Assembly: GCA_903837125.1 (NCBI GenBank)
Contig: CAILTG010000055.1
Coordinates: forward strand, 2,199 to 66,198
Reading direction: 5' to 3'
Origin: Candidatus Magasanikiibacteriota bacterium
Lineage (GTDB): Bacteria > Patescibacteriota > Patescibacteriia > Magasanikbacterales > UBA922
DNA length: 64,000 nucleotides
A program made the translations under genes and the position numbers. Positions 36,599 through 63,121 of the stretch are shown one piece after another. How positions within the stretch are numbered: position 1 is the first letter of the stretch; every line of letters begins with the position of its first letter. Under the pieces are notes generated by a model. The model was not told the origin of the DNA. It made no database searches and was given only the letters and a program-made list of their open reading frames with translations.

Positions 36599-36602
36599 CA
36601 TA

Positions 36603-36640
36603 ACAAAATATACCAGATTTATCTGGTATATTTTGTTGTA
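36603..36640 (+). terminator. Perfect 15-bp hairpin after the tRNA (terminator-like)
   Basis: AACAAAATATACCAG-atttat-CTGGTATATTTTGTT followed by a T-rich run. Confidence 0.5.
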
Positions 36641-36724: not shown

Positions 36725-36753
36725 TTGCTAAAAACAAAATCAGGAGATATAAT
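36725..36753 (+). promoter_or_regulatory. Promoter TTGCTA-N17-TATAAT for the 455-aa gene
   Basis: TTGCTA at 36725-36730 and TATAAT at 36748-36753. It lies inside the ORF-track's N-terminal extension, so the true start is downstream. Confidence 0.4.
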
Positions 36754-36808
36754 ATTAAGTACCAATTTTACAAATCTACAATATTTTTATTCAACTGATT
36801 ATATCTAT

Positions 36809-40608: not shown

Positions 40609-41187
40609 TTACTTGTTCCAATAAAATCCACTAACTTTCCAATCTGCTCCGGCACGAACCAATTCTACTCTACCAGATCTATAGTAAGTCTGGCTTGAAG
40701 TAGCAGTTTCATCAATTATTTGTGTATCCACCAAAACTGTAGCTTTCTCAGTTTCAAAACTTGTTACTGAACTGGATATTACTTTGGTTTCTCGACCCTG
40801 ATAAACAGAATTTTGCGGCACAGCTTGGGTTTTAAGCCACTTAACCACCTCGGGTGTAGCCATTAGTAATACGTCAGCTAAATGAGCATTATTGTTTTGA
40901 TTGGAATAACTGCCAAACCGTTCTACAAAAATTTGGGCCACCTGTTTGGCATAAAGTTCGTCTGGTGCAGTTCTGGTTGGAACAATAGGTTGAATTGGCC
41001 CCTGATTTTGATTAACAGCTTGTTGGGTAGCACCTGTTTCCTGTTGTTCTACTTTATTTCCAATAGTAGGAATATTTAATTTAATAATTCCCGGCTTAAA
41101 AACAAACAAATATAATAATAGTGAAACTATAATTAAACCGGCTACAATTCCTGTTCCTAAAAAAATTCGTTTTCTTAAATCCAACAT
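40609..41187 (-). CDS. Bitopic membrane protein (N-terminal TM plus extracytoplasmic domain), possibly a VirB8/TcpC-like T4SS component
   Basis: 192 aa. It has a TM helix IFLGTGIVAGLIIVSLLLYLFVF. The soluble domain is of a size and hydrophobic-core pattern compatible with an NTF2-like fold, and its position is last in the T4SS-like operon. The assignment is tentative. Confidence 0.35.
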   Translation of the reverse strand: MLDLRKRIFLGTGIVAGLIIVSLLLYLFVFKPGIIKLNIPTIGNKVEQQETGATQQAVNQNQGPIQPIVPTRTAPDELYAKQVAQIFVERFGSYSNQNNNAHLADVLLMATPEVVKWLKTQAVPQNSVYQGRETKVISSSVTSFETEKATVLVDTQIIDETATSSQTYYRSGRVELVRAGADWKVSGFYWNK

Positions 41188-41210
41188 ACAATTAACACTT
41201 AAACGATAAG

Positions 41211-43103
41211 TTATGTTTCACTTTTCGGTTCAGCTCCTCCCATTTGTTCTTCATATTCTTTCTTAGCTTTTTCTATATCTAATAACTGTTGAGGATTAGT
41301 AGTAACTAATTGATCTTCAGTATAAGAGGCTACCACCTTGATGGCGGCATGTTTTAAACCGGCAAAGAAAATCCCCTCGCCCACTGCAGTTTCCAGTAAT
41401 AAATACTTCTCTCCTTCAGTCAACATAAAAGTTTTCTGTACCATTTCAATAGCCGCCGGCGACTGACGTAGGAGTAATTGCAAAGCAGAATTAGTAACAA
41501 TTGCCTGGCCGTATTGAGAACGTAAAAAATCATTCACGTCTTGGGTGATCGTGGTTACTCCCAAATAATACTTGCGACAACGTTTTACCAAAGCATAAAT
41601 AAATTTGGCACTATCTTCATTGGTCATTAGCCACCAGGCCTCATCAATAATCATAATTCTCTTTTTTCTTTCACTACGCACCACATTCCAAATATAATTA
41701 ACTAAAGTATAAATAGCCATGGGCCGCAATTCATCTTCTAAATCACGCACCGAAAACACCACCAATTGATTACTCATGTTGACATTGGTAGGTGAATTAA
41801 ACAGCCCTGAGAAAGTACCAATGGTAAATTTGCTTAATTTTAAAACCAAATTTTCTGCCCCCTGCATTCCTTCCAAAACTTCTTGCAAATCCTGCATAAT
41901 CGGCGCCTCTACTGTCGTTAAATCAGCATTGGCAGTAATATCTTTTTTAGCAAAAGTTTCCAACAAGGCCTTGTCCATAAGTGAATCTTCTTGAGAGGTA
42001 AGCGTGTTGAACATGATTCTAATTAACCCTTTTAAAGTAATTACGGCACTTCTAATAATATCCTCGGTGGATACTTGCTGGCCAACTGGACGAGGCAAAT
42101 CAAAAGGATTTACTTTTGATTCTGAAGCCAAAGAAATATTAACATAAGTGCCGCCCACTGCTTCACAAAGATGCAAATATTCCATTTCCGGATCAATAAT
42201 AATAATATCAGTGCCCATCATTAAAGTACGTAAAACTTCTAATTTAACGGCATACGATTTTCCCGAACCAGCCGTGGCAAACACCACCATATTGGCATTT
42301 TGTAAAGAAAAACGATCAAATAAAATAAGACTATTATTGTGGCGATTAATACCATATAATACTCCATCATCACTAGTCAATTCTGAAGAAATAAAAGGAA
42401 AAGAAGAAGCAATAGGCGAAGAATTCATGTTGAAAGAAACCGTAAGTTCATCAATACCAAGTGGCAGAGTTGAATTAAAACCCTGTTCAGCCTGAAATAA
42501 AACATGCTTACTATAAATTAATTTACTGCCAAAAATATTTTCCACATCTTCGGTTATTTTATTCAATTCTTCTAAATTCTTGGAATATAAAGTTACATAA
42601 AAAGAAAATTGAAAAAAATGTTCTACCCCTTGGGTTAAATCATCGCGCAGTTGTTCAATATCTCTGAGGGCTGTTTCACGTAAAGGATCACGAGCCGCGC
42701 CTTTTTCAGTATCTGAACTAATTTGAGCTTCTAGCGCTCCTACTTTTTTCTTTAACTGTTTGAGAATTATTTCAGCATTTACCGGATAAAAAAACATGGA
42801 AATATCCATGGTAATATTTAAATTCAAAATCGGCGAACTCCAACCAACGGCAATATACCGAGGATAAGTTATTACATAAATGGTCCGCAAAAAAATATCT
42901 CCCAATTGAATATAATTTGATTCAACTCTAAAAGCCGAAGGAGCAATCAAATCCTTAATAGCCACCGTGCCTTCCCGATAAAGCTGCTCTTCTTTTAAAG
43001 TAGTTATTTCCTCTTCTATTTTTTTATTTCGCAACCTATCCTCTGCTACCTGTCCGGCCAAAGCACCACGGGCTTTTTTAATTGTAGCTGGCTTAAAAGC
43101 CAT
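41211..43103 (-). CDS. VirB4/TraE-family type IV secretion ATPase (Gram-positive-size variant)
   Basis: 630 aa. Walker A VVFATAGSGKSYAV, NPFDL motif (SKVNPFDLP), Walker B RIMIIDEAWWLM, and C-terminal GVTTITQDVNDF, which are the hallmarks of VirB4/CagE/TraE AAA_10 ATPases. Confidence 0.7.
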   Translation of the reverse strand: MAFKPATIKKARGALAGQVAEDRLRNKKIEEEITTLKEEQLYREGTVAIKDLIAPSAFRVESNYIQLGDIFLRTIYVITYPRYIAVGWSSPILNLNITMDISMFFYPVNAEIILKQLKKKVGALEAQISSDTEKGAARDPLRETALRDIEQLRDDLTQGVEHFFQFSFYVTLYSKNLEELNKITEDVENIFGSKLIYSKHVLFQAEQGFNSTLPLGIDELTVSFNMNSSPIASSFPFISSELTSDDGVLYGINRHNNSLILFDRFSLQNANMVVFATAGSGKSYAVKLEVLRTLMMGTDIIIIDPEMEYLHLCEAVGGTYVNISLASESKVNPFDLPRPVGQQVSTEDIIRSAVITLKGLIRIMFNTLTSQEDSLMDKALLETFAKKDITANADLTTVEAPIMQDLQEVLEGMQGAENLVLKLSKFTIGTFSGLFNSPTNVNMSNQLVVFSVRDLEDELRPMAIYTLVNYIWNVVRSERKKRIMIIDEAWWLMTNEDSAKFIYALVKRCRKYYLGVTTITQDVNDFLRSQYGQAIVTNSALQLLLRQSPAAIEMVQKTFMLTEGEKYLLLETAVGEGIFFAGLKHAAIKVVASYTEDQLVTTNPQQLLDIEKAKKEYEEQMGGAEPKSET

Positions 43104-43132
43104 AATTGTACTAACTAAACATTAATAAATAA

Positions 43133-43831
43133 CTATTCATAATTATTTTCAATCTGCAATTGTTCAACTGCTCCCAGTCCTTCAGAAAAAGAAATATCAG
43201 GATTATAAGTTGCATAATATAATTCTATCAAAGCCTGGGTGCCTAACTCGGCAATTTCCAAACCCACACTCTGTAAACCACCAGCTACCTGCCGCACTCG
43301 GCTATCTAAATCCCCTTTTCTCTGTTTAAATCTTTCTTCTTTTAATCGAACAGTTAAGGCTGGTTTTATTACTTCTTTAAACCGCGCCCAAAAACTTTTT
43401 TTACGGTTGGACATGGGATCATAAGGAATAATCACATAAAATCTTTTAGTAACAATTTGACCCATTTCTACCAATTGTTCCACAAATGAACGATAATCGG
43501 CAATCTGAATCCTTAACAATTCATTACTTTGACTTTTTTCTGTTTCAAGTAATCGATCAAGATAAGGTTTTATTTGCAAACGCCGAGACTGAATTTGTAT
43601 CTGCAACGGAAAATCAATGCTGTTTAAAAAACCAACGTAAGCAGAAATCAGGGCCTCTTGTTCATCATCGGATTTTAAAGAAAAATTGATGCTAGAGACC
43701 ATTAAAACCGACCGCAAAGTGCCATCTTTTAAAATCACCACTCCATCTTTTATTTCCGCAATCGGCAGATAAGTTTGGGTGGCAGGTTTACTAGCAATTT
43801 TCTTTTGTGCCTTCTTAGACTTCATAAACAA
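43133..43831 (-). CDS. Hypothetical protein (232 aa) encoded immediately upstream of the VirB4-like ATPase
   Basis: No motif was recognised. There is a 29-nt gap to the ATPase gene and it is out of frame with it. Confidence 0.45.
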   Translation of the reverse strand: MFMKSKKAQKKIASKPATQTYLPIAEIKDGVVILKDGTLRSVLMVSSINFSLKSDDEQEALISAYVGFLNSIDFPLQIQIQSRRLQIKPYLDRLLETEKSQSNELLRIQIADYRSFVEQLVEMGQIVTKRFYVIIPYDPMSNRKKSFWARFKEVIKPALTVRLKEERFKQRKGDLDSRVRQVAGGLQSVGLEIAELGTQALIELYYATYNPDISFSEGLGAVEQLQIENNYE

Positions 43832-43845
43832 ATACCATTATACCA

Positions 43846-44271
43846 TTAATCTTCCGGTTTATAAAACCCACCAGTATTTACTATTAGCGCCAAATCGCGC
43901 ACATGCTCTGACTTCACTTTTTTTCTAATCTCTTTTTCCGGAATTTTTTCAACCTCCAGATTTCTAAAATAATCTAATTCTTCTTTACTATAAAACTTAC
44001 GCCAAATACGCAAAGAAGGCTTTCGTACTGTTTGTAAAATATTCAATAAAAAATAATGGAATAACTGACCATTCACTTTAACAAAAGAAAAAACTAAGGC
44101 CAAACTGCCAACTATCACTAAAACAGTAATGAATAAACTAAAATCCGCATATTTATAAGCCAAAAAAATTAATAAGCTAGCAGATAATAATATCAAAAAC
44201 TGCCGGGTGGTAATTGGCCCAAATATTTTATCTTCCACATCAATAAATTGAGGAACAACAAACTGTTGCAT
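43846..44271 (-). CDS. PrgI/TcpE-like (VirB3-like) small two-TM protein
   Basis: 141 aa. It reads IDVEDKIFGPITTRQFLILL followed by two hydrophobic helices, which resembles PrgI-family proteins of Gram-positive-type T4SS loci. It is adjacent to the VirB4-like gene. Confidence 0.5.
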   Translation of the reverse strand: MQQFVVPQFIDVEDKIFGPITTRQFLILLSASLLIFLAYKYADFSLFITVLVIVGSLALVFSFVKVNGQLFHYFLLNILQTVRKPSLRIWRKFYSKEELDYFRNLEVEKIPEKEIRKKVKSEHVRDLALIVNTGGFYKPED

Positions 44272-44275
44272 ATTT

Positions 44276-45364
44276 TCAATTGTTAAGTTGGCTGTTCACC
44301 TCTACCAGTGCGGTAAACTCAGTGGTTTTCATTTGACTACCCTGACCATTATTAGCATCCAATAAACTGGCTATTTTGGTTTTCTTTTCTAAAGCCTCTC
44401 TAATCACTCCTTGGTACTGTTTATAAAGAGGACTAACCTGCCAAGCATTAAGTGCTTCAAAAAATAACAAATATGACTCTTTTTTAAAAACAGCAAATTT
44501 GTCAGCCAAAATTTTACCTGCTTGAGATGGCTTATTACTCAAACGCCGAAAATCTGTTAAAGAAAACATTTTTAATTCTTCAATTGGCCCTACACTTCTT
44601 TTTTCAACCACCGGAGCAATCACATCATGAATTATTGGTCTGGCGGCTTGGCTGTTTATTAAAACTGTCTGATTTGGGGGTATCTCCTGGCTCTGCAATG
44701 ATTCATTAACCAAGTGGTCAAGTGGTTTAGTGGTTGGGTGGTAAGGTGGTAAGGTGCTTGAATGGTTCAGTGATTGAGTGTTCAAATTTTTAATCGCCTC
44801 AAGCAACTGTTTAGCCTGATCCTGGCTCCAACCTAAACCGCCAGAATTTTCCAACTTAAGACAATATTCAATTACTTGATCATCCGTACGCACATCTTTT
44901 AAACGCGAAACCACTAAAGGACGAAGTCGTGAAAGTTGTTTATCAGTAACCGGAAATTTTATTTTTTTCATTATTCCACTAAATTCATCTTCTTTATTAC
45001 TTGGCAAAGACTCCAAATCAAAATCAGTTTCCTCCACTTTTTCTTCCAATGGTGACACCTGGTCGCCCTCTGTCCATTGTTTTATATTCGGCAAAATTTG
45101 ATCTTTCGATCTTTCGATCTTTCGATCTTTCGCCACAGCCATCGCCGCCGCTTCATCAATAAAAATATCAGTCACCGGCGTACTGGTAGCCAAAGCTTGA
45201 CTCTGCGTCTCCATTGGCAGTGCCTCAATCGGTGCTTTTGCATTCAGTTGCTCAGGTGTTGAGGTGCTCAAGTTTTCTTTATATTTTTTAAACTCATCCA
45301 TAGTCATACGAACCGACGTACCGTCGGCTTTTTTGACAAGGATAGTTGGTAATGATAAAACCAT
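44276..45364 (-). CDS. Hypothetical protein (362 aa) containing an in-frame 9-bp x4 tandem repeat
   Basis: No known motif. DNA 45100-45135 is (gatctttcg)x4, encoding ...KDRKIERSKD... Confidence 0.45.
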   Translation of the reverse strand: MVLSLPTILVKKADGTSVRMTMDEFKKYKENLSTSTPEQLNAKAPIEALPMETQSQALATSTPVTDIFIDEAAAMAVAKDRKIERSKDQILPNIKQWTEGDQVSPLEEKVEETDFDLESLPSNKEDEFSGIMKKIKFPVTDKQLSRLRPLVVSRLKDVRTDDQVIEYCLKLENSGGLGWSQDQAKQLLEAIKNLNTQSLNHSSTLPPYHPTTKPLDHLVNESLQSQEIPPNQTVLINSQAARPIIHDVIAPVVEKRSVGPIEELKMFSLTDFRRLSNKPSQAGKILADKFAVFKKESYLLFFEALNAWQVSPLYKQYQGVIREALEKKTKIASLLDANNGQGSQMKTTEFTALVEVNSQLNN

Positions 45365-45373
45365 AAAATATTA

Positions 45374-46885
45374 TTATACAAATTTCTGATTTGGTCTGGT
45401 AGTATTCAACTTCCATTGATTATCTTTTTCTGAATAATAAATCAAAGGTCCATATTCTGGAGAAAATAATTCCTCATACAATTGACTCAAAACTAAAATA
45501 CCAGAAAAATAAGGATCTTCCTGCCAATCAGGTAAATCCATAAAGGCACAAATCAATTCCACGCGCAAAGCAAATGGACGATTAACAATTTTAAAATAAG
45601 TTTTAATATTTTCAGCAGACTCTTCATCTATTTCACCGCTAATTATTTTTTGCCAATCAAAATTCGCATCCTTTTTTAACATTTCACCCAAAATATGATG
45701 AAAATCTATTAAGTCACAGTCACGCAAATGCAAATATAAATTTAAAACACCCAATAATTTTGGCTCCAGACTTATTGGCCAACTATTCTTGGCAATCTCC
45801 GCTTTTACATAATTTTCCTGATTTGCTATTTCTAATTCATTGTTGCTTCCGGCCAAATAAGCACCAATAAATTGACCAATTGTTAGACTATCATCACCAT
45901 TCTCTTGAAAATACACAACCTCTTGGTTGGCCAACAAGCTCTCGGCCAGGGTGGCTGATTGTACCAAATATTCATCCAAAAATCTCTGATCTACTAAAAT
46001 ATTAATTAACACGCTTCGCCAAGGCGCGTTTAAGCAAAAACCTGTCCAAAAATATTTTTCAATTAAAGTTTTTCTTTCTTCAACAATAAAATCCGGAAAG
46101 CCTTTTAAAATTAAAAATACTAAACCAATAATAAATAAATAATAATCAAATTCCTGGTGCAGTTCTTTATTAAAGTTTAACTTTAATAAAAAAGACTTAG
46201 CCCAAACCTGTAGATCTGCTTCATTGCCATAAAAAGACTGACCTAAAAATCTAAGTAACGATTGCCAATCAGGTACCTGGCCATTTTTTATTTCCTCTTC
46301 TAATTCCTGCACCGTATATCTGTGCTCAGTTTGATAAAAAAGTAACAAAGAACCAACCAACAAAAATTGCTTCTGCAAATAATTATAAGAAATAAAGATT
46401 GATTTTAATGTTTCTTCAACTTTTATTGCTGTTTCTACATCCAAAACAACTAATCTAGCAACGAGTTCTTTTACAGCCTCTGTTTCCCAACCAAGGCTTG
46501 CTAATAATTTACTCCAATTTATCTCATTCGCTTCAATAATATCAGCAGTTGCGCTTTTTGGCCAAATATTTTGCAATGAATTTAAATCTAACAAAAGATT
46601 ATTCAACATTTCATTATCTATAGTATCTACACCCATTACCAAAAAAGCAATTTCAAGATCTTTACCCACTTTTTTAATACTAAATTCATCATTAACATCT
46701 TCCACTAAAAACGACAAACCGCGCCAAAAAGAATTGTATGTCCAATTACGGCCAAAAATATTTTTAGACAGTTCCGAAATATTGGACAAGACCAAAAATT
46801 TTTTGTCCCACCATTCTTCTGGATTGTTAACTATATTTTGATACATAACCAATTTATTTCTGACCGGATTAATAAAATATAACAA
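45374..46885 (-). CDS. Hypothetical protein (503 aa), likely cytoplasmic
   Basis: A long uninterrupted ORF packed 9 nt from its downstream neighbour. No recognisable motif. Confidence 0.45.
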   Translation of the reverse strand: MLYFINPVRNKLVMYQNIVNNPEEWWDKKFLVLSNISELSKNIFGRNWTYNSFWRGLSFLVEDVNDEFSIKKVGKDLEIAFLVMGVDTIDNEMLNNLLLDLNSLQNIWPKSATADIIEANEINWSKLLASLGWETEAVKELVARLVVLDVETAIKVEETLKSIFISYNYLQKQFLLVGSLLLFYQTEHRYTVQELEEEIKNGQVPDWQSLLRFLGQSFYGNEADLQVWAKSFLLKLNFNKELHQEFDYYLFIIGLVFLILKGFPDFIVEERKTLIEKYFWTGFCLNAPWRSVLINILVDQRFLDEYLVQSATLAESLLANQEVVYFQENGDDSLTIGQFIGAYLAGSNNELEIANQENYVKAEIAKNSWPISLEPKLLGVLNLYLHLRDCDLIDFHHILGEMLKKDANFDWQKIISGEIDEESAENIKTYFKIVNRPFALRVELICAFMDLPDWQEDPYFSGILVLSQLYEELFSPEYGPLIYYSEKDNQWKLNTTRPNQKFV

Positions 46886-46910
46886 AATTACGATGTGAAA
46901 AAATCTTTAT

Positions 46911-52532: not shown

Positions 52533-52580
52533 GCTATTTATTATCTGCTATTTGTTAATTATTATTTGCATTATACCACA

Positions 52581-55500: not shown

Positions 55501-58500
55501 TCTGACCATTCCTTATTAGGATCATATTTTGAAGGATCAAAAGCACGTAAACTTCGCTGTGTTCTAAAAGCTAAATATTGAACAAAAGCATTATCAGCTG
55601 GTTCAAAAAAATGGTTCGGCTGTCCAAAACATTCTGTCTTTATATTTTCCACCCATTCATAACACACACCAGGAGTACCAGTATATGCTAAACAAGTTAT
55701 GTACTGTTGTCTTACAGGAATAGGTTCAACCTTGCACCATTCAAACCGCCCCGCTACTGATGAATTATTATCATATTTAGAAGGATTTTCTCTTGGTGGA
55801 AAATAACTCTCTATCAAACCATTCCCTTTTCCATCCTTTTCCATTTTCTGATTAATATCAGAAAAATTTTCATATATTGGTGTAAGTAATCCATATAGGT
55901 TTACCATTCCAAAATTTTTCCAATAACTCTTTTCATAACTGAGCGGCGCCGTAGAATTGGTGCAGTATACTTCTCCAATACTAGGATTGGCATCTATACC
56001 AGTAGTATAGCCAAGATTGGGATTGCCATTTATATTGTCGGCAGTACCGCCAGCTAAATCTAGTGGAAGCCAGGTGAGACAAGGAAAAATTATTTTGCCA
56101 GTGCTGTCTGTGCCCAACGGATGGCTTAGATCATTTTCTAAACAATAACCAGTTGTTCCTTTATATTTATCTATGGAAGACTCTTGCGCGCAAACACCAT
56201 TGGTATTATCACCACTATTACAGTCAGTATCTACTAAACAAGCAAAACCATCTTTATTTCCACCAGTACAAATACCCTGAGGCCTTACATCAAAAGGATT
56301 TTTTAAAGTTGAATTATCAGGCCAGTAATCAGGCAATACTCCTTTGTAATTAATTTTTTCATATTGGCAAGAACAGTCTACATTGGCTTGACAAACATTT
56401 ACTCCTTTATAATCATTTTTTATATTAGTAAATTCTGCGCGCCAACCCCCCTTATCTGGTGTATTCTTAAACCATTTTTTTCCATTTTCTACGCCATTTT
56501 TAGCATCATTAACTTTGGAATCTACCACCAAAGATTCAGGAAAAGGTGAAGTGGCTTCAGGATGAGATTTACAAATACTCTTGGACCAAGCAGAACTAAC
56601 CACCGCTTTTTCAACACCAGTATTTATATCAACTATACCAACATCAGCAAATGGACCATCTAATGGATAAATACAACTTCCGTTATAACAACGGCCGCCG
56701 TTATCTATGCCACAAATACCTTTAATAGAATTACCTGAACTATCTATACAATTGGCATTATTGGAATCTGAATGAACTAAATAAAGTTTATTACTTGAAG
56801 GAAAACTAACTGCCCGATCAGTTGCCAAATTATAGCGATTCAACAGCGAATAACCAGAATAATCTGGTTCAGCCCAGCCCACCGCGCGCCCTACATAAAA
56901 GGCTTCATCCAACAAATTATTATTTGTGGTGGGGAGAAAATTATTGCAATAACCGTCTGGGGTAGTTTGATTGCACAAACCAAAATCTGAACAATATTTA
57001 ATGGTTTTACCAGTTTCGGTTTGCAAATCAAAAGAAGTACGGCAAGACAGCCATTCAGAACATTCACGATCACGCCTTACTTTTAACAATAAATTAGTGT
57101 CAAGCTGGCCAGTGGTTACCGGAGGAACTGGTAAAAACCGCTCTGGCTTGGTAGCGGCCGAGTTGGCATAAGTAGCCCCACTATTATAAATTTTATTGGG
57201 ATCCTCAGTGCGGTTAAACAAAACGCAGCCCCTAGTTTCGCCCACTTTATTATTACAACCATTTATTTGATCTGACGCTTGGTCTACTAAATCTTGGCTA
57301 TAAATTACATAGTAAGGCTTACCAGTGGGATCTTGTGCAGAAGTAGCCACCGTGTCCAAGAGCTCGGTACAAGCATTATTGGCTTCGTCACATTCCCCTA
57401 CATTGCCTTTATAACTACTAGTATTACCATTAGACCAAATACCGTTTTCAATATTATTTTGCAAATAATTATCATAACAAGGAACCGGATTTGTTTTCTG
57501 ACAAGAATTCCCTTGGCCACAGTCATCATCAACGCGACATAATTGGGCAGAACCAGAACTGCAATAGCCTATATCTTTCTTAAACCAACCATAAGCTTGT
57601 GTTGGATTAATTGGATCATGTTGTTTGTAATAGCAAAGACTGTTGCCGGTTTGTAAAGGATCTTTGAAATAAAAAGTATTGGCTCCATAAGTATAACCGC
57701 TGCAACCAAGCAAACCACTGCGGCATAAAGTTCCTTTAATTCCAGTAGTATCATTGGTTAAATAATTAGCCGGATTATTTTTATAATACACGTCAGAAAA
57801 TTGATAAGAAGTGGTATCAGAATTCGGCAAAATATGATTTTCCTGACCAAATTTTTGACAACCCAATTCAGCTTGCGTGCAAGTGAGTGGTGTACTGCTG
57901 GCTAAATTATAAGTGGTTAAGAAAATTGGTGTATGATCAGAAGTATCTGCGGGAATAACTATGGTGGAAGTAACTACATATAATTCACCAGTATCGGTTG
58001 AAGTGGTTGGCTCGGTGTGACCACCAGAATGAAATGAATTAAAATGTATAATACCCTTGGTGTGATCAAAAGCAGGATTGATAGTATAATAATCTGGAAC
58101 ACTCACTGGAGCTTGTGTGTAACCAGTAGGACTTACTAAACCCTGGACAAAACAACGATCTTCTCCAGGTAAAACTGTACAACCATAGGTTCCATTATCA
58201 CCCACAGTAAATGAACACTTGGGAGTTGTAGAAGTAAGCCTGCATTCAGCATTATAAAGCTGTATTTGTTGATCTAGTGGATTACCAGAAATACGGTTAT
58301 GCGAATCATAAACCGCGGTACAACCCACTGCCTCAGGCCGACACATTTTAGCAAAACCAGTTAAATTTGCTTCAACATTCTGTTTATTAATAGCAGAATT
58401 TACCACATCAATATAAGCTTTACAACCCAAAGCCTTGCCTGGATAAGGAGTTTTAGCATTACCTAAATCTTCATCAGTGGTGCCAAAACAAGCGCCCGGA

Positions 58501-61500
58501 GCATCAGCCCAAAATGTTTCCCCAGTAGATAATTGAATTAATGATTTCCAGCTATCTTTAATTAAATAAATATTGCCTGGAACTTCGGTCAGCCGTACAT
58601 TATCAATATAATATGAGCCGCCTACTCCTGGAGAACTAACTAGACCAAAATATAACTGAGCAGGAGTGGTGCTGGCACCGGTAAACTCCACTGGCCCAAA
58701 ATGATAATTTTGCCATTCACTGCCAATGGTGACTGAAAGCGGTGTTTGTGCTTCTTGATTGTAAGTAAATGCTCCTACTTTATCAGTAGCTTGTTTAAAA
58801 TAAATCTCAATATTTTGTGAAGTGCCGCGCGCCCAAAAAGACAATTCATACCAGCCCTGATTATTTAAACTCCCGGCCGGCAATTGCCGATTTACATCAT
58901 CTTTTATTTCCAAAGAATGTCCACCCGCGTAAATTGATTCTGGAGATAGAGTTACTCCTGACCACAGACTTAAAGAACTAGTGGTTTCAAAATCGTCAAT
59001 CTCAAAAACATTTCTAGGACTGTTACCATTATTACCTTTATAAGCACGACAACCATTAAACTCTGCTAAATTATCAGCTGGACCATTACAGGACAATGAC
59101 TCACCAGGCCGAGAAATTGTCCAATAAATACAAGTACTGCTGGCATATTGTCCACCATTATAGCAACGCTGACAAGTATTATTGGCACGATCCCAATAGC
59201 CTTGTTCATCCGCGCAAGAGGGAGAAACAAAATCAATTCTACTTTCCTTTAAAAGAGAATCCGAATATAAATGAGCAGCTGTTTTGCGCAAAGGATGGCA
59301 AGCTGGGTCAACGGTTACTGTTTCACTTAATAAGCGATAAAAAACTTCGCCATTACTATTATAAAGTGCCCGACAATTTGGGGCATCATCAGATAAACTA
59401 GAATAAAGCTGATTATTATAAGCAAGAGCATTGCAAATATAATTATTATTAATCATTTTTTCCGGACTATAATCCACATAAGCTGGTGAACCTAAAGGAA
59501 ATCCTGACCAGATAGTGCTGTTAACTTCGGCTTTAATTAATAATAATTTGTCTGCGTTTATTTTAAGCATTTTGTGAGTGCGCAACACATAGCCTTCTTG
59601 TTTGGAACCTTCCCAAGAATAAAAAGTTCCTTCATTACTGCCAGTTGGCCTTTCACAATAACGCAATTGACTATAATATTCCAAACCTTCACCACCAGCC
59701 GCGGCAGCATCAATATTTGTGAACTCATCACAACCAACAAACTCTTTACTGCAAATCTGTTTACCCTGTACCATATTGGTTTGCGCAACAATAGGCACAA
59801 AATAAAGCGGAAATTTTTGTGGTTCAAAATCAGTGCTTTCTTGTTTAAAAGTATTATAACCAACGCAATTGGCAGCACACTTATTAATATCTTCAGCTAC
59901 TCCAGGAATCATTTGTCCACCATCTTTTGGCTGATAGGCCAGACAACCAACTTCTTCTGGTAAACAGGCGCGAGAAAAATTATCACAACGAGGTTCAGTC
60001 GGAAGTAAAGCTAATTCAGGTTTGGTTTGCGGCCAAACAATTTCTTTATTCGCAGAACGAGGATCAATATTATAACACCCCAAATAATCCGGAGCTTTTT
60101 TAATATAAACCAAAGCGCCAGTATCATAATTATTTACATAAGCACCATCACCATCTAAAATCGCCGGATAAAAAGAACTACAGCCATCATTGGCAGCATC
60201 ACATATATTATTATCTGCTATAAAATTTTTATTAAAATATGATACTTGATTCCGACCAGCAAGCTGGTAATTCAAACCTTGCACTTTTGAACTGGGCAGC
60301 CAACTATCACCCACTTGCTCTTGGCTGTAAGCAGTACAACCAACATCATTGGCTGTGCACTGGCCATAATCTACAGTACGTGATAAATAACTGGGAGTAG
60401 TTCCATCAATAGCAGTATAAGTTTTACAAGTATTATAATAACTTGGACAAGTAGGAGCGTCTAAACGCCAAATATTACCTTCTTTTAAGCAATAACTATG
60501 ATAACCACCCAGACAACCGCCTTTATTATCCTCTTTTATACAAGTAGACAAATCCGCGCATTCGGTTTGTCTAGTACCCAAACCAGAACTTTGTGTCCTT
60601 TCGCCAATCACCGCTGATTCGCAAACAGCCTCAGGCGATTTTAACAGCCAATTAGGATCAATTAAATGACAATACTGATATACCGGGTCGCTACTTATTT
60701 CTACTTTACCATTAACATAATAACAATTATCATAATTATCAACCACTGTTTTCAAAGTCCAAGCCGCCAAATTATGGGGGTCAGCTTTGAAAGCTGCCAA
60801 CTCAAAACCTAAAGGAATAATTCTAGCTTTTCTTAATTTTTGTAAATTAGAATAACAATAGCCGCGACTATAACAATTTTTGTCAGTATTATCCGACACT
60901 CTACTGGGAGAAATTAAAGGCCAATCAGCATGCAATAAATCCTCTTTTTTATCCATGGCTTGTCTAATAGTCATTGCCGCCGCCCCATTGCTGCCACGGT
61001 TTACTGCTGTAGCAAAAGGCAAATCCATTACACAATTATCAGGATCATTTGAGCTGAGGTCACAGCTAGAAAACTTGGTAACAATTCCATAATCAATAAA
61101 ACTTTTATTAGGCACGGCCGTATAAAAGAAACTAAAAGCATTAGCCACTGCTTGCTGTGTTTGCGCCACATACTCACTGGTGTAAGAATTGAGCACTGGG
61201 GCTTGTTCGCCTGCTCCACTGCCACTACTATCAAACAACCCTTTGCTTAAAAGTTTATTTAACAATTGGCTTACCAAAGTGTTAAGAAAAACCGAACCGG
61301 CCATAGGCAATATCTGAGCTGACGCAGCCCCATAAATTCCGGCTATTTGTTGATTGCTTTCTTTGCCCTTTTCTTTGGCAGTCAAAGCTGTAGATTCTGT
61401 TTTAATTATATCGCCAGGGGTTTTTATATTACCGGAAATAAGATCAGTTAACGGCTTAAAACCCGCAGCTTCTAAACGTTGGCTAGTGGCGCCAGCTACT

Positions 61501-62243
61501 TCAGTGGCTTGCAAACGATCTATCTGAGCCTGAGCACCTAAAGCCAAACTAAAATCATCATTAGAAGTTTTTATGGAATTAGCCAACAATTGATCAGCAA
61601 ACTTTGAACCATCAGCCCCATATTTTTGTTGCATGCCAGTAGTCCAAGCACCCTGCATTTGCTGAAAAGTACAATCTGGTTGCGGACCGTTTTCATTATT
61701 TGTACCATTTCCACTGCCATTTTTAGAAGGTTGTTTATACTTCTGCCTTAAACCAACCTGTAAAAAAGCTTGCAATTTTAAATCCGGAGTTTGACACATG
61801 TCTAAGCCAAATGGCTTGCCTAACTGGTTAATTAGGGAAGCCGCGCTATTTTCCGCAATACCCACAATATAACTGGAAAAATTTTGCTTAAAAGCCAAAG
61901 CACCCTGGCCGTGACCACCGGTAGAGATAAACATGGCTAAATCATAAGATACTTTACGAGCCACATAAGAAGCCATATTTACTAAACCACCCAAAGCTGC
62001 GGTTAACAAAGTACTTTTTACAGTATCAGCGGTAGATTTGGCAGCGATTAATGTTTGTGTTCCTGTGTCCTTCGTCGGCATTCCCGGTGTTGCTGCCGCA
62101 GTTGCTGCCGCAGCCGCCATAGCCGCTGCCTCCTCCTGTGCTTGAACCGTTTGAGTATTAAAAATAAAACCAAAAAGTTCTACAAATACAAAAAACATTA
62201 TGAAAATTTTCAAAAATACTTTTTGGCCTTTAAGGTTGTACAT
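52581..62243 (-). CDS. Giant (3220 aa) secreted cysteine-rich surface protein, a putative adhesin or apparatus-associated protein
   Basis: It has an N-terminal signal peptide (IFIMFFVFVELFGFIFNTQTVQAQ) followed by Ala-rich and Gly/Asn/Ser/Thr/Cys-rich sequence throughout, with very many Cys residues and no TM beyond the signal. It is a single ORF of 9.66 kb. Confidence 0.55.
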   Translation of the reverse strand: MYNLKGQKVFLKIFIMFFVFVELFGFIFNTQTVQAQEEAAAMAAAAATAAATPGMPTKDTGTQTLIAAKSTADTVKSTLLTAALGGLVNMASYVARKVSYDLAMFISTGGHGQGALAFKQNFSSYIVGIAENSAASLINQLGKPFGLDMCQTPDLKLQAFLQVGLRQKYKQPSKNGSGNGTNNENGPQPDCTFQQMQGAWTTGMQQKYGADGSKFADQLLANSIKTSNDDFSLALGAQAQIDRLQATEVAGATSQRLEAAGFKPLTDLISGNIKTPGDIIKTESTALTAKEKGKESNQQIAGIYGAASAQILPMAGSVFLNTLVSQLLNKLLSKGLFDSSGSGAGEQAPVLNSYTSEYVAQTQQAVANAFSFFYTAVPNKSFIDYGIVTKFSSCDLSSNDPDNCVMDLPFATAVNRGSNGAAAMTIRQAMDKKEDLLHADWPLISPSRVSDNTDKNCYSRGYCYSNLQKLRKARIIPLGFELAAFKADPHNLAAWTLKTVVDNYDNCYYVNGKVEISSDPVYQYCHLIDPNWLLKSPEAVCESAVIGERTQSSGLGTRQTECADLSTCIKEDNKGGCLGGYHSYCLKEGNIWRLDAPTCPSYYNTCKTYTAIDGTTPSYLSRTVDYGQCTANDVGCTAYSQEQVGDSWLPSSKVQGLNYQLAGRNQVSYFNKNFIADNNICDAANDGCSSFYPAILDGDGAYVNNYDTGALVYIKKAPDYLGCYNIDPRSANKEIVWPQTKPELALLPTEPRCDNFSRACLPEEVGCLAYQPKDGGQMIPGVAEDINKCAANCVGYNTFKQESTDFEPQKFPLYFVPIVAQTNMVQGKQICSKEFVGCDEFTNIDAAAAGGEGLEYYSQLRYCERPTGSNEGTFYSWEGSKQEGYVLRTHKMLKINADKLLLIKAEVNSTIWSGFPLGSPAYVDYSPEKMINNNYICNALAYNNQLYSSLSDDAPNCRALYNSNGEVFYRLLSETVTVDPACHPLRKTAAHLYSDSLLKESRIDFVSPSCADEQGYWDRANNTCQRCYNGGQYASSTCIYWTISRPGESLSCNGPADNLAEFNGCRAYKGNNGNSPRNVFEIDDFETTSSLSLWSGVTLSPESIYAGGHSLEIKDDVNRQLPAGSLNNQGWYELSFWARGTSQNIEIYFKQATDKVGAFTYNQEAQTPLSVTIGSEWQNYHFGPVEFTGASTTPAQLYFGLVSSPGVGGSYYIDNVRLTEVPGNIYLIKDSWKSLIQLSTGETFWADAPGACFGTTDEDLGNAKTPYPGKALGCKAYIDVVNSAINKQNVEANLTGFAKMCRPEAVGCTAVYDSHNRISGNPLDQQIQLYNAECRLTSTTPKCSFTVGDNGTYGCTVLPGEDRCFVQGLVSPTGYTQAPVSVPDYYTINPAFDHTKGIIHFNSFHSGGHTEPTTSTDTGELYVVTSTIVIPADTSDHTPIFLTTYNLASSTPLTCTQAELGCQKFGQENHILPNSDTTSYQFSDVYYKNNPANYLTNDTTGIKGTLCRSGLLGCSGYTYGANTFYFKDPLQTGNSLCYYKQHDPINPTQAYGWFKKDIGYCSSGSAQLCRVDDDCGQGNSCQKTNPVPCYDNYLQNNIENGIWSNGNTSSYKGNVGECDEANNACTELLDTVATSAQDPTGKPYYVIYSQDLVDQASDQINGCNNKVGETRGCVLFNRTEDPNKIYNSGATYANSAATKPERFLPVPPVTTGQLDTNLLLKVRRDRECSEWLSCRTSFDLQTETGKTIKYCSDFGLCNQTTPDGYCNNFLPTTNNNLLDEAFYVGRAVGWAEPDYSGYSLLNRYNLATDRAVSFPSSNKLYLVHSDSNNANCIDSSGNSIKGICGIDNGGRCYNGSCIYPLDGPFADVGIVDINTGVEKAVVSSAWSKSICKSHPEATSPFPESLVVDSKVNDAKNGVENGKKWFKNTPDKGGWRAEFTNIKNDYKGVNVCQANVDCSCQYEKINYKGVLPDYWPDNSTLKNPFDVRPQGICTGGNKDGFACLVDTDCNSGDNTNGVCAQESSIDKYKGTTGYCLENDLSHPLGTDSTGKIIFPCLTWLPLDLAGGTADNINGNPNLGYTTGIDANPSIGEVYCTNSTAPLSYEKSYWKNFGMVNLYGLLTPIYENFSDINQKMEKDGKGNGLIESYFPPRENPSKYDNNSSVAGRFEWCKVEPIPVRQQYITCLAYTGTPGVCYEWVENIKTECFGQPNHFFEPADNAFVQYLAFRTQRSLRAFDPSKYDPNKEWSEEFSKKNSFDPKANFLNDPSPEVEAYANLAYDYLNKCFVPSIFQDSNVNSALDCTDKNTKGHFISMFDKDNFFWMINPFTEQICNDTSTFQYGDPQEDYTKSVLGWCNNNLSADSFSKKVNSSDKSNTFYTYLQTYSWLKISPTAQVLLAHDPVKWSEKETVTCSSSGSCAPTNLMGFGDSYFNDFTGVASKPYVATKKVNEKDLKALYLAPYSYKGTRFTGSDRSFALIDNVKIDVDRLRSLYLNPPEPNSIDRRSPNWSYVTYTFLLDFSSAHLNIHTTPETPRNVTAVAFYAKNKNDNHLVIGVVVDDNDQYEGNPSSINSDRFGSIISNELECPNIESTDSGLAVDTANKYNNLPSGLDPGKDCGVQTASAYEGSLNGFYRATLFKFDSDNNLDLSTFESGYKDQVYDNIAFNCYAGFGCSNPSYFNSGWSAKLNNNFIALAKMNRGKALFSRSEGGTFSNPVNSLTNNNLHALNHVLYPYLGVIADLYPRCTEYVQVYNENQPISYSGIPVSNKAWTNRVWKNAADVLTLKLAGAATTTLLNNTSVSRPFGNLSLKGSDLVHNQDSIIDYNFMDPAAAGYPFVCSQILWATDSLINVAASYYLGCSGLMVPILDANGQTVTSAADNTASPYYNVITGLGTLNGVNGREILHQLFAKEYYVVKRNDNTLKLVSGGDVDVAASNSGVFAKLLPPQIYSLNLVNCLPSSNTSGVAVKCTPWMPNTFTVNKNNGLPGAHYAGDTNVFEEDLNKNGLTDADNLVGIGTYNAMVEFYGFADENRMPLRRLMIDWGDDLPIYGQGISGYYFNNKPICESNDDGGNFTVKHCLVGNKDKQITCNDNSDCLGIDAAATCGRLPNDTLQSFGDIMRTCRANYFKIEHGYACDNQTATTPVNSLDEDQKKIIREKSPSAIMVCVFQPKVQLMDNWGWCNCNDPKGCYGDDSSKNCDPTKINAWTYFQSKIIVIPNEKKK

Positions 62244-62272
62244 AAATAAAACCTGATTTTATTTTGGCAAAA

Positions 62273-63025
62273 TTATTTTTTGGTGGTGGAAACTATTCCC
62301 AACACTTTGGCCGCACCTTCATCACTTAAATCTAAATTATTATTTGAACCAGCAGTTGTACTAGTACTGGATTCTTGCAATAACTGAGTAATCATTTGCA
62401 TTAAAGACTGATCGTCAATTTTAGAAAGTGTGTCAGTGGCAATTTTACCGGTGGCCAAGAGCATTTCCCGCACAGTTTTAGGATCTTGTAAATCTTGTTT
62501 AAATCCAGAAAAAGCTCCATTATCATTTGTGGCCACAGTTTGATTAATAATATCCTGTGCTGTGGCTACGTTGGCCAAAGGACTACCCATATCAATAATA
62601 GTGGAAGAAGGAGAAGCAGTGGAAGAAAGTACGCCTTCTGAACCTGGATACTGCGCTCCAGCTGTACAATTTTGATTATTTGCCGCACATAAGGGATTTA
62701 AATTTTTAGCAATTTTTTCTTTATCAGACATATTATCTGAAGCAGTGGACCATAAATAAGGGCTGGTATGATAAACATAAATTTCATCATAATCGGTCAA
62801 GCCATCATGATCAGTGTCAATATATTTTAACCGTAAAACAGGATCAGTAACTGAAGGAGATAATTGGCTGTCTAAAAGTGGTTTATAAGCAAAAGGACCA
62901 TAAACACGATTACGTATTTGAAGTAATCCCAAACCCACGGCTAAAATACCAAAAATCAGCAACAAAACAAAGCCTGTTTTCTGCTGTCCAGTTAAAGCCT
63001 TTCGCCTTAGATCGTTTTGATCCAT
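62273..63025 (-). CDS. Membrane-anchored protein (250 aa) with a thrombospondin-type-3-like Ca-binding motif; first gene of the operon
   Basis: TM helix GFVLLLIFGILAVGLGLLQI. The motif DTDHDGLTDYDE matches DxDxDGxxDxxE. Confidence 0.45.
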   Translation of the reverse strand: MDQNDLRRKALTGQQKTGFVLLLIFGILAVGLGLLQIRNRVYGPFAYKPLLDSQLSPSVTDPVLRLKYIDTDHDGLTDYDEIYVYHTSPYLWSTASDNMSDKEKIAKNLNPLCAANNQNCTAGAQYPGSEGVLSSTASPSSTIIDMGSPLANVATAQDIINQTVATNDNGAFSGFKQDLQDPKTVREMLLATGKIATDTLSKIDDQSLMQMITQLLQESSTSTTAGSNNNLDLSDEGAAKVLGIVSTTKK

Positions 63026-63048: not shown

Positions 63049-63057
63049 ATTATAGCA
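63049..63057 (-). promoter_or_regulatory. Extended -10 promoter (TGcTATAAT) for the nine-gene operon
   Basis: Minus-strand TGCTATAAT (plus coordinates 63049-63057) lies 24 nt upstream of the ATG at 63025. It is embedded in the inverted repeat ATTTGCTA...TAGCAAAT. Confidence 0.35.
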
Positions 63058-63121
63058 AATTTTTAACAACTTAACAACAAAGAGTGGATAAGTCCACCAC
63101 AGCTGAGGCTGTGGTTAATTT

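What the first reader, a model, noticed from the sequence alone, without database searches (positions are those of the whole stretch)
40609..63025. A 22.4-kb nine-gene operon couples type-IV-secretion-like components to two giant proteins
All nine ORFs lie on the minus strand with gaps of 4-48 nt, behind an extended -10 promoter at 63049-63057. The recognisable parts are a VirB4/TraE-like ATPase (Walker A, NPFDL, DEAW, TITQ motifs), a PrgI/VirB3-like two-TM protein, a VirB6/TrbL-like polytopic protein fused to a ~1400-aa coiled-coil extension (1873 aa) and a putative VirB8-like bitopic protein. They are interleaved with a 3220-aa secreted Cys-rich giant protein and four proteins of unknown function. 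No VirD4 coupling protein, relaxase, pilin or integrase is present, so this is not a canonical conjugative module. It looks like a chromosomal T4SS-like envelope machine, possibly used for cell-cell attachment, DNA uptake or effector delivery in a host-dependent small-genome bacterium. The fusion of the channel component to a huge extension and the co-transcribed 3220-aa surface protein are unusual.
Basis: partly seen in the sequence, partly recalled or inferred. Interest (0 to 1): 0.85.

Follow-up and report, generated by a model that had tools for sequence, protein, structure and literature searches.

The report
Patescibacterial type IV secretion gene cluster
This is the chromosomal, non-conjugative type IV secretion-like machine already described for ultra-small Patescibacteria, here in a Magasanikbacteria-type genome, and it differs from published descriptions in having an oversized channel protein, an attached competence gene (comF) and a neighbouring giant surface protein.

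Summary
The nine minus-strand ORFs, their 4-48 nt gaps and the extended -10 promoter are real.

**Components identified**
- The 630-aa protein is a VirB4 ATPase, above the NCBIfam cut-off.
- The 141-aa protein is PrgI/VirB3.
- The 232-aa "unknown" is a TrsD-like split-off VirB4 N-domain.
- The 1873-aa protein has a TrbL/VirB6-like membrane domain. That domain is borderline in this protein but passes the cut-off in two homologues.

**Context**
- The system matches the relaxase-less, Gram-positive-like T4SS published for Patescibacteria in 2023 and 2025, including the comF and ksgA neighbours.
- It is probably not one nine-gene operon. In about 80 related genomes the conserved core is VirB6-long, 503, 362, PrgI, TrsD, VirB4, VirB8-like and ComF.
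- The 250-aa + giant pair lies upstream in only 21 of 56 genomes.
- Two further genome-validated TGNTATAAT promoters sit before the VirB6-like gene and before trsD.

**What seems undescribed**
- A confidently modelled ~530-aa C-terminal domain on the VirB6-like protein, with no structural or sequence relatives outside this family.
- The recurrent link to a ~3000-aa Cys-rich secreted protein.

The cargo is unknown. I slightly favour DNA import handed to ComF. Interest is moderate.

The parts
63049..63077 (-). Promoter P1: -35 TTGTTA, 17-nt spacer, extended -10 TGcTATAAT. The -10 ends 24 nt upstream of the 250-aa ORF.
   Evidence: TGNTATAAT is strongly enriched in the intergenic DNA of this window.
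62273..63025 (-). 250-aa bitopic protein with an N-terminal TM (residues 19-37) and a weak TSP3-type Ca-binding motif. It is the conserved upstream partner of the giant gene.
   Evidence: A homologue precedes the giant gene in L003 and L004 and in 5 of 6 testable loci.
52581..62243 (-). 3220-aa secreted or surface Cys-rich giant protein with 110 Cys and an N-terminal signal-like segment. It belongs to a family of about 2,800-3,200 aa.
   Evidence: No Pfam or PDB sequence hit. Distant homologues carry CBM_4_9.
52570..52578 (-). Candidate internal promoter P2: extended -10 TGgTATAAT in the 48-nt gap, 38 nt upstream of the VirB6-like start codon.
51333..52532 (-). N-terminal polytopic membrane domain of the 1873-aa protein (residues 1-400, about 8 hydrophobic segments). 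It is TrbL/VirB6-like.
   Evidence: TrbL PF04610 scores 17.1 bits for the window protein, below the 25.9 cut-off. P0025 and P0058 score 27.4 and 27.9 bits and pass. Six of 25 family members hit TrbL, the only recurrent family. PF19590 TrbL_3 is precomputed on many homologues. TM analysis.
48606..51332 (-). Charged, helical linker of the 1873-aa protein (about residues 401-1309). Its length varies and it is poorly conserved.
   Evidence: Conservation profile, composition, variable length among homologues, and long helices in the modelled part.
47013..48605 (-). Conserved C-terminal globular alpha-helical domain of the 1873-aa protein (about residues 1310-1840), with invariant D1392, D1393, H1591 and K1625. 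It is an orphan domain.
45374..46885 (-). 503-aa protein of unknown function. It belongs to a fast-evolving family that occupies the slot after the VirB6-like gene.
   Evidence: 62 of 69 slot ORFs in relatives form one BLAST cluster that includes this protein. No Pfam, NCBIfam or PDB hit.
44276..45364 (-). 362-aa soluble protein of unknown function. It is conserved directly upstream of PrgI.
   Evidence: tblastn hits in 56 of 80 loci. Family alignment A5. No PDB or Pfam hit even with the family profile.
43846..44271 (-). 141-aa PrgI/VirB3-like small membrane protein.
   Evidence: PF12666 scores 33.7 bits against a cut-off of 27. It is conserved in 54 loci.
43837..43845 (-). Candidate internal promoter P3: extended -10 TGgTATAAT in the 14-nt gap, 6 nt before the TrsD-like start codon.
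43133..43831 (-). 232-aa TrsD-like protein, a free-standing equivalent of the VirB4 N-terminal domain.
   Evidence: It matches the N-terminal positions of VirB4 models (TIGR00929 positions 4-176; NF045971 positions 9-93) and TrsD NF041427 at E 2e-7, all below cut-off. Orthologues in relatives carry PF26593 TraC-like.
41211..43103 (-). 630-aa VirB4-family ATPase, lacking the first ~170 positions of the full-length model.
   Evidence: NF045971 scores 350.7 bits against a cut-off of 325, over model positions 172-728. P-loop_TraG 5e-29 and AAA_10. PDB 4ag5 VirB4-like at 1.3e-46. About 82% identical across relatives.
40609..41187 (-). 192-aa bitopic VirB8-like protein: N-terminal TM, linker, then an NTF2-like domain.
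39798..40499 (-). 233-aa ComF (ComFC-type) protein with a double zinc ribbon and a PRTase domain.
   Evidence: TIGR00201 comF at 1.2e-30 (below cut-off), Pribosyltran and DZR_2. It is present after the VirB8-like gene in 30 of 31 loci, at a median gap of 18 nt.

Best explanation
**What it is.** The block is the chromosomal, relaxase-less type IV secretion system of the Patescibacteria clade, which derives from Gram-positive (MPF-FATA) conjugation machinery. Here it is in a Magasanikbacteria-like (class ABY1) genome.

**Shown.**
- A conserved eight-gene core: extended VirB6-like protein, 503-aa family, 362-aa family, PrgI/VirB3, TrsD-like VirB4 N-domain, VirB4 ATPase, VirB8-like bitopic protein, and ComF.
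- A separate two-gene surface module: a 250-aa membrane-anchored TSP3-like protein plus a Sec-signal-bearing 3220-aa Cys-rich giant. It abuts the core here and in about 38% of related species.
- The block carries three genome-typical extended -10 promoters, so it is probably two or three transcription units with read-through, not one operon.

**Inferred mechanism.**
- PrgI anchors a split VirB4 (TrsD + ATPase) hexamer beneath a VirB6/VirB8 membrane channel.
- The VirB6 C-terminal linker and its ~530-aa orphan domain probably lie in the cytoplasm. They may act as the substrate-handling platform in place of the missing VirD4.
- The giant Cys-rich protein, held by the 250-aa anchor, is the likely host-contact adhesin.

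**Cargo and direction** are not shown. My preferred reading (about 0.35-0.4) is nucleic-acid import at the host interface, with ssDNA passed to the co-encoded ComF.

Confidence in the identity is about 0.9.
For: **Component identities**
- VirB4.
- PrgI.
- TrsD-like.
- VirB8 fold.
- TrbL/VirB6 at family level.
- ComF.

**Lineage**
- All close homologues come from Magasanikbacteria or other Patescibacteria.

**Chromosomal setting**
- The flanking genes are housekeeping: ksgA, recQ, smc, clpP, rpsG, rpsL.

**Literature match**
- PMC12102498 describes VirB4 + TrsD + PrgI + VirB6, rare VirB8 that is mostly in ABY1, no relaxase, and comF and ksgA nearby.
- PMC10633639 shows the Saccharibacterial T4SS is essential and lacks coupling and relaxase proteins.

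**Synteny**
- The core order is conserved across about 50 species. The 192-aa homologue and ComF are each present in 30 of 31 loci. The giant lies upstream in 21 of 56.
- The 250 + giant pair occurs without a T4SS next to it in L004. The T4SS occurs without the giant in L001.

**Promoters**
-.

**Selection**
- VirB4 is about 82% identical, TrsD about 72% and PrgI about 70% across species, against about 45-48% for ksgA and comF.

**For the import reading**
- comF is in the operon.
- There is no T4CP or relaxase. From my own knowledge, the ComB (H. pylori) and Ced (archaeal) import systems also lack these; ComFC and ComB references are PMC9005727 and PMC13395361.
Against: - The VirB6 assignment for the window protein itself is below the Pfam cut-off (17.1 against 25.9 bits).
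- The TrsD match is below its family cut-off.
- VirB8 membership rests on a predicted fold only. The fold belongs to the broad NTF2 superfamily, and no sequence profile supports it.
- The cytoplasmic location of the VirB6 extension is inferred only from K/R counts.
- Against the import reading: in Southlakia, comEC, comF and dprA are dispensable while the T4SS is essential. No other competence gene lies next to the cluster in the relatives examined. A monoderm does not obviously need a T4SS in addition to ComEC.
- The giant-T4SS linkage is absent in 62% of species, so a functional coupling is not required by the data.
- No transcript data exist.
Confidence: 0.78

Rival explanations
1. The same machine works outward. 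It exports proteins or effectors into or onto the host bacterium, or builds a contact structure. This is what has been suggested for the essential Saccharibacterial T4SS. On this reading ComF is only a conserved neighbour.
For: - Wang et al. propose protein export or an alternative role, because coupling and relaxase proteins are absent, and they find comEC, comF and dprA non-essential.
- The strong conservation of VirB4, TrsD and PrgI fits an essential host-interaction role.
- Large surface proteins cluster near the system.
Against: - No effector-like gene, immunity pair or T4CP was detected in the window.
- No VirB2-like pilin ORF fits in the block, because the gaps are at most 48 nt.
- comF is placed tightly in the operon in 27 of 29 loci, which this reading leaves unexplained.
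Confidence: 0.3
2. All nine genes form one operon that encodes a single integrated machine, in which the 3220-aa giant is a structural or obligate component of the T4SS.
For: - All genes are co-oriented, with gaps of at most 48 nt, and no terminator-like hairpin lies in any of the intergenic gaps.
- The same ksgA-250-giant-VirB6L order recurs in L003, L066 and L072.
- Giant-like paralogues also sit next to VirB6-like paralogues in L010, L070 and L073.
Against: - The giant is absent from the upstream 3-10 kb in 35 of 56 species.
- The 250 + giant pair exists without an adjacent T4SS in L004, and the T4SS without the giant in L001.
- A genome-validated extended -10 element lies in the giant-VirB6L gap.
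- The giant has a Sec-type N-terminal signal, so it does not need the T4SS for export.
Confidence: 0.15
3. A decayed conjugative element (ICE or plasmid remnant) integrated in the chromosome, with no current cellular function.
For: - The VirB4 best matches a conjugal-transfer family, CD1110.
- The gene set resembles Gram-positive conjugation operons.
Against: - No integrase, relaxase, T4CP or repeats were detected in the window.
- GC content is uniform with the flanks.
- The same chromosomal context and gene order hold across about 50 species.
- All ORFs are intact.
- VirB4 is more conserved than the neighbouring housekeeping genes.
Confidence: 0.03

Closest known systems
Patescibacteria-clade T4SS (Quinonero-Coronel et al. 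2025, PMC12102498; Southlakia epibionticum SEML1_0006-0019, Wang et al. 2023, PMC10633639)
   Same: - Chromosomal location.
- VirB4 with an adjacent TrsD-like protein, PrgI/VirB3 and VirB6.
- No relaxase or coupling protein at the locus.
- comF and ksgA nearby, as reported for class ABY1 and other classes.
- A Gram-positive (MPF-FATA) flavour.
   Different: - There is no VirB2-like pilin array and no VirB1-like hydrolase in this block.
- The VirB6 is a protein of about 1,000-2,100 aa with a lineage-restricted ~530-aa C-terminal domain.
- A clear VirB8-fold protein is present, whereas none was found in Southlakia.
- A giant Cys-rich secreted protein is often adjacent.
- The 2025 paper's text holds none of the terms 'giant', 'large protein' or 'extension'.
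Gram-positive conjugative T4SS of the pIP501/pGO1/pCF10/CTn2 type (MPF-FATA)
   Same: - A minimal membrane translocon: VirB4 (TraE/TrsE/PrgJ), TrsD, PrgI/TrsC, a VirB6-like protein (PrgH/TraL) and VirB8-fold proteins (TraM/TraH/PrgL/TcpC).
- No outer-membrane core.
- Adhesion is supplied by a large surface protein (PrgB) and not by a pilus.
   Different: - There is no relaxase, no VirD4/TcpA coupling protein, no VirB1-type hydrolase and no oriT context.
- The system is chromosomal and vertically conserved.
- comF is attached.
Extended VirB6 proteins (Rickettsiales VirB6 paralogues, F-plasmid TraG; Alvarez-Martinez and Christie 2009, cited in PMC12857230)
   Same: A polytopic VirB6-like N-terminal domain followed by a very large hydrophilic C-terminal region.
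   Different: - The C-terminal domain here has no detectable sequence relative outside this family, and no fold relative among solved or viral predicted structures.
- It is predicted, weakly, to be cytoplasmic and not periplasmic or surface-exposed.
DNA-uptake T4SS-like systems: Helicobacter pylori ComB (with ComEC/ComFC) and the archaeal Ced system
   Same: - A VirB4-type ATPase machine without relaxase or coupling protein.
- Association with ComFC (in H. pylori, functionally; PMC9005727 and PMC13395361).
- A weak CedB match for the ATPase, 4e-12 and far below cut-off.
   Different: - ComB has VirB7, VirB9 and VirB10 outer-membrane parts and operates in a diderm.
- Ced uses CedA-family membrane proteins.
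- Neither has TrsD, an extended VirB6 or a giant Cys-rich partner.
- The resemblance is of possible function only, not of membership.

Membership tests
Patescibacteria-clade / MPF-FATA-type T4SS | VirB4-family ATPase (the signature protein) | tested here: met
   NF045971 scores 350.7 bits against a cut-off of 325. P-loop_TraG 5e-29. PDB 4ag5 at 1.3e-46.
Patescibacteria-clade / MPF-FATA-type T4SS | TrsD-like protein (remote homologue of the VirB4 N-terminus) encoded next to virB4 | tested here: met
   The 232-aa ORF matches N-terminal positions of four VirB4 models and TrsD NF041427 at E 2e-7. All are below the curated cut-offs. Positional orthologues carry PF26593 TraC-like.
Patescibacteria-clade / MPF-FATA-type T4SS | VirB3/PrgI small membrane protein | tested here: met
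   PF12666 scores 33.7 bits against a cut-off of 27.
Patescibacteria-clade / MPF-FATA-type T4SS | VirB6/TrbL polytopic channel protein | tested here: inconclusive
   The window protein's N-terminal domain scores 17.1 bits, below the 25.9 cut-off, over profile positions 6-190 of 215. Homologues P0025 and P0058 pass at 27.4 and 27.9 bits. Six of 25 family members hit TrbL. TrbL_3 is precomputed on many homologues. No structure model of this domain was made.
Patescibacteria-clade / MPF-FATA-type T4SS | Placement of VirB4 inside the monophyletic Patescibacteria clade | not tested
   No phylogeny was built. Indirect support only: the orthologous VirB4 genes in 51 Magasanikbacteria/Patescibacteria loci are up to about 82% identical.
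Patescibacteria-clade / MPF-FATA-type T4SS | Absence of relaxase and coupling protein at the locus | tested here: met
   No relaxase or T4CP family reached significance in any ORF scanned in the 64-kb window. The only T4CP-like matches are far sub-threshold hits of the VirB4 ATPase itself. The rest of the genome was not seen.
Patescibacteria-clade / MPF-FATA-type T4SS | VirB2-like pilin gene or array near virB4 (frequent, not universal) | tested here: not met
   The gaps in the block are at most 48 nt, and no small unassigned ORF lies between the genes.
VirB8 family | Bitopic topology (N-terminal TM) plus a C-terminal NTF2-like VirB8 fold | tested here: met
VirB8 family | Sequence-profile match to VirB8, TraE or PrgL | tested here: not met
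   There was no VirB8 hit with the family profile against PDB sequences. One of 20 members hit PF05309 TraE, at E 0.023.
Conjugative T4SS / ICE | Relaxase, type IV coupling protein, and integrase or oriT | tested here: not met
   None was detected in the window. The context is conserved chromosomal housekeeping genes.
Extended VirB6 | VirB6-like polytopic N-domain fused to one or more large hydrophilic domains | tested here: met
   About 8 hydrophobic segments lie in residues 1-400, followed by about 1,470 hydrophilic residues. The architecture is conserved in 101 of 120 homologues.
ComB-type DNA-uptake T4SS | VirB7, VirB9 and VirB10 envelope-spanning core together with ComB2-4, 6 and 8 | tested here: not met
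   No VirB9 or VirB10 family hit was found. The organism is presumed to be a monoderm.
ComF (ComFC) competence protein | N-terminal zinc ribbon plus a PRTase-like domain | tested here: met
   DZR_2 at 1.7e-4 and Pribosyltran at 2.9e-10. TIGR00201 comF at 1.2e-30, 106.9 bits, which is below the 233.55 cut-off.

The most novel reading that the evidence does not exclude
In Magasanikbacteria the T4SS has been rebuilt into a contact-dependent nucleic-acid import machine.
- The giant Cys-rich protein, held by the 250-aa anchor, docks the epibiont on its host.
- The VirB4/TrsD-powered VirB6/VirB8 channel pulls host DNA inward.
- The lineage-specific ~530-aa cytoplasmic domain on VirB6 replaces the coupling protein. 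It receives the strand and passes it to the co-transcribed ComF.

This would be a monoderm 'reverse conjugation' system that feeds a nucleotide-auxotrophic cell.
Probability: 0.18. Interest if true: 0.85.

Novelty: new variant of a known kind. Interest (0 to 1): 0.45.

Why it matters
The Patescibacterial T4SS is the only T4SS known to be essential for its owner's growth (PMC12857230), and its cargo is unknown.

The Magasanikbacteria version gives concrete handles on that question:
- A clear VirB8-fold subunit. Sequence profiles detected VirB8 only rarely in the published survey (PMC12102498).
- A competence gene fixed in the operon.
- A conserved orphan domain fused to the channel protein.
- A candidate giant adhesin.

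These features could guide structure prediction of the complex and the design of experiments on how ultra-small epibionts take material from their hosts.

Beyond that, the locus is a member of a published system and not a new class of machine.

Tried and rejected
**Negative searches**
- Sequence-profile detection of VirB8 for the 192-aa family was negative against both PDB sequences and Pfam. Only the fold comparison was informative.
- The 362-aa family had no PDB hit and no recurrent Pfam hit (no family matched more than one of 13 members).
- The 503-aa and 250-aa proteins had no PDB-sequence hit. The 232-aa protein had only chance-level hits, E about 0.7.
- The giant had no Pfam or PDB hit.
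- The 1873-aa protein had no PDB-sequence hit.
- Rfam found only tRNAs in the window.
- The large ORFs elsewhere in the window (1830, 2466, 842, 646 and 471 aa) are not paralogues of the operon proteins.

- The afdb50 library was unavailable.
- An NCBIfam scan of the giant and its homologues exceeded the residue limit.
- The window's own contig could not be retrieved by exact protein look-up. The organism's name is therefore inferred from relatives.

**Ideas considered and rejected**
- A conjugative or ICE remnant, rejected because of the conserved chromosomal synteny, the intact genes and the lack of mobility genes.
- The giant as a T4SS substrate, rejected because it has a Sec-type signal.
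- The whole VirB6 extension as one coiled coil, rejected because the last ~530 aa form a confident globular domain.

Full report
**Observation.**
The gaps from those coordinates are 23, 29, 14, 4, 9, 25, 48 and 29 nt.
- Upstream of the first ORF there is a TTGTTA-17-TGcTATAAT promoter, with its -10 at 63049-63057. Before it, a terminator-like hairpin closes ksgA.
- The 3220-aa protein has a single N-terminal hydrophobic segment and 110 cysteines.

**Component identities.**

| ORF | Assignment | Evidence |
|---|---|---|
| 630 aa | VirB4 ATPase | NF045971 (CD1110-type VirB4) 350.7 bits, cut-off 325, over model positions 172-728 only. P-loop_TraG and AAA_10. PDB 4ag5 at 1.3e-46 |
| 232 aa | TrsD-like, the missing VirB4 N-terminal part | Matches positions 4-176 of TIGR00929 and 9-93 of NF045971, and TrsD/TraD at E 2e-7, all below cut-off. 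Orthologues in relatives carry PF26593 TraC-like |
| 141 aa | PrgI/VirB3 | Passes the Pfam cut-off |
| 1873 aa, N-terminal ~400 residues | VirB6/TrbL-like at family level | About eight hydrophobic segments. TrbL at 17.1 bits, below the 25.9 cut-off. Two homologues pass and TrbL is the only recurrent family, 6 of 25 |

So VirB4 is split, as in the pGO1-type Gram-positive systems.

**Organism and prior knowledge.**
- Homologues of the 1873-aa, 3220-aa and 192-aa proteins come almost only from Candidatus Magasanikbacteria and other Patescibacteria. From my own knowledge of GTDB, this order belongs to class ABY1.
- The rest of the window is housekeeping chromosome: S7, S12, ClpP, SMC, RecQ, a sigma factor and KsgA.
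- The system is already described. Quinonero-Coronel et al. 2025 catalogued a Patescibacteria-specific, MPF-FATA-derived T4SS with VirB4, TrsD, PrgI/VirB3 and VirB6. They found rare VirB8 (mostly in ABY1), almost no relaxases, and comF (in ABY1) and ksgA near virB4.
- Wang et al. 2023 showed that the Saccharibacterial version is essential for epibiotic growth and lacks coupling and relaxase proteins.
- 'Extended VirB6' proteins are a recognised category.

**Modular structure.** I fetched 80 loci centred on the VirB6-like gene from species-representative genomes and searched them with all window proteins.
- The conserved, co-oriented order is VirB6-long, one to three ORFs of a fast-evolving family that includes the 503-aa protein (62 of 69 slot ORFs cluster together), the 362-aa family, PrgI, TrsD, VirB4, VirB8-like and ComF.
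- The 192-aa homologue and ComF are each present in 30 of 31 loci with enough downstream sequence. ComF starts a median 18 nt after the VirB8-like gene. Synteny ends after it. comF (39798-40499) therefore belongs to the unit.
- The giant gene lies upstream of the VirB6-like gene in only 21 of 56 loci.
- The 250-aa homologue + giant pair occurs with no T4SS next to it in L004. The VirB6-like gene is about 13 kb further along the same contig.
- The T4SS occurs without the giant in L001.
- Where it can be tested, the 250-aa homologue precedes the giant in 5 of 6 loci.
- Three loci show a giant-like paralogue downstream of a VirB6-like paralogue.

The two families are therefore recurrently, but not obligatorily, linked.

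**Promoters.**
- TGNTATAAT occurs 14 times in the window, against about 5 expected.
- Eleven copies fall in the 9.2% of the window that is intergenic (P about 1e-9).
- Shuffling the intergenic DNA alone gives 1.05 expected, and 0 of 2000 shuffles reach 11. It is a genuine promoter element in this genome.
- Three copies lie in the block: before the 250-aa ORF, in the 48-nt gap before the VirB6-like gene, and in the 14-nt gap before trsD.
- No terminator-like hairpin lies in any of the intergenic gaps. Nested transcripts with read-through are the likeliest arrangement. This is inference.

**The VirB6-like protein.**
- Alignments show three parts: the membrane domain, a poorly conserved charged helical linker of variable length, and a conserved C-terminal region with invariant D1392, D1393, H1591 and K1625.
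- Residues 1150-1873 were modelled with pLDDT 86.1 and pTM 0.81 as a mostly helical globular domain.
- An exhaustive HMMER scan of 1.84 billion representative proteins found only 48 hits, nearly all at the C-terminus of long proteins of this same family. It is a lineage-restricted orphan domain.
- The segment after the last hydrophobic stretch has 19 K/R against 9 D/E, and the N-terminus has 7 K/R in 20 residues. That suggests a cytoplasmic location. This is weak inference.

**Mechanism.**
- Shown: the parts list and its conservation. VirB4, TrsD and PrgI are about 70-82% identical between species, far above ksgA and comF at about 45-48%.
- Inferred: a minimal Gram-positive-type membrane translocon driven by a split VirB4. 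The VirB6 C-domain acts as a cytoplasmic platform in place of VirD4. The Sec-exported giant and its 250-aa anchor act as the adhesin that such pilus-less systems need.
- Cargo: the fixed comF and the lack of T4CP and relaxase (which, from my own knowledge, ComB and Ced also lack) make DNA import my preferred reading, at about 0.35-0.4.
- Against it, the Southlakia data show com genes are dispensable while the T4SS is essential, and no other competence gene lies adjacent. Outward protein delivery stays nearly as likely.

**Verdict.** This is a real, well-supported T4SS cluster of a published type. What appears undescribed is the orphan VirB6 C-domain, the structural identification of the VirB8 subunit in this lineage, and the recurrent link to a giant Cys-rich protein.

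**Limits.** There are no transcript data. No model was made of the VirB6 membrane domain or of the giant. The 362-, 503- and 250-aa proteins remain unassigned. The AlphaFold-database fold library was unavailable.

Noticed in passing
window 30492-31907 (-): A 471-aa ORF with 61 cysteines (13%) and a lipoprotein-like N-terminus (LLLLGASC). It has only sub-threshold Pfam hints (Dumpy DPY, DUF7107). A TGgTATAAT promoter element lies 36 nt upstream.
   Followed up: partly
window 20061-27461 (-) and 13521-19013 (-): Two more very large ORFs. The 2466-aa protein combines an N-terminal Peptidase_M48 domain with a C-terminal ABC1 atypical-kinase domain. The 1830-aa protein has no Pfam hit. Neither is similar to the operon proteins.
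   Followed up: partly
window 36512-36599 (+): ARAGORN calls a tRNA-Ser with anticodon ACT (A34), in addition to tRNA-Ser(GCT) and tRNA-Ser(TGA) nearby. From my own knowledge, A34 is unusual in bacterial tRNAs outside tRNA-Arg(ACG). A long 18-pair hairpin (G-T pairs allowed) follows at 36600-36639.
   Followed up: no
window-wide, e.g. 30423-30431, 43837-43845, 63049-63057 (-): TGNTATAAT works as a genome-specific extended -10 signal. Several copies lie only 6-24 nt from the annotated start codon, which suggests very short leaders or leaderless mRNAs in this organism.
   Followed up: partly
L007, L010, L012, L014, L016 and many others: Many public genome records titled 'uncultured Gammaproteobacteria bacterium' carry this Magasanikbacteria-type cluster. 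Their titles look like taxonomic mislabels or placeholders.
   Followed up: no
L001 18446-18862 and 21615-21968; L003 2821-3177 and 26627-26989; L087 18009-18215: Small ORFs with PF05635 (23S_rRNA_IVP) or PDDEXK_3 domains are inserted between T4SS genes in relatives but not in this window. This suggests mobile small genes that repeatedly land in the cluster.
   Followed up: no
L010 10079-14299; L070 14033-19825; L073 8193-13934: In three genomes a divergent giant-like paralogue (27-41% identity) lies downstream of a VirB6-like gene, not upstream. In L070 and L073 no VirB4 was detected in the locus.
   Followed up: partly
window 54143-55940 (-), giant protein residues about 2100-2700: This ~600-residue stretch of the giant protein aligns with almost none of its 85 homologues. 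The flanking regions align with nearly all of them. It looks like a lineage-specific insertion or a hypervariable region.
   Followed up: no
window 36725-39750 (+): Two convergent ORFs of 483 and 525 aa lie just beyond comF. The 525-aa sequence is strongly hydrophobic and looks like a polytopic membrane protein. Neither has a significant Pfam hit. They mark the end of the minus-strand block.
   Followed up: no
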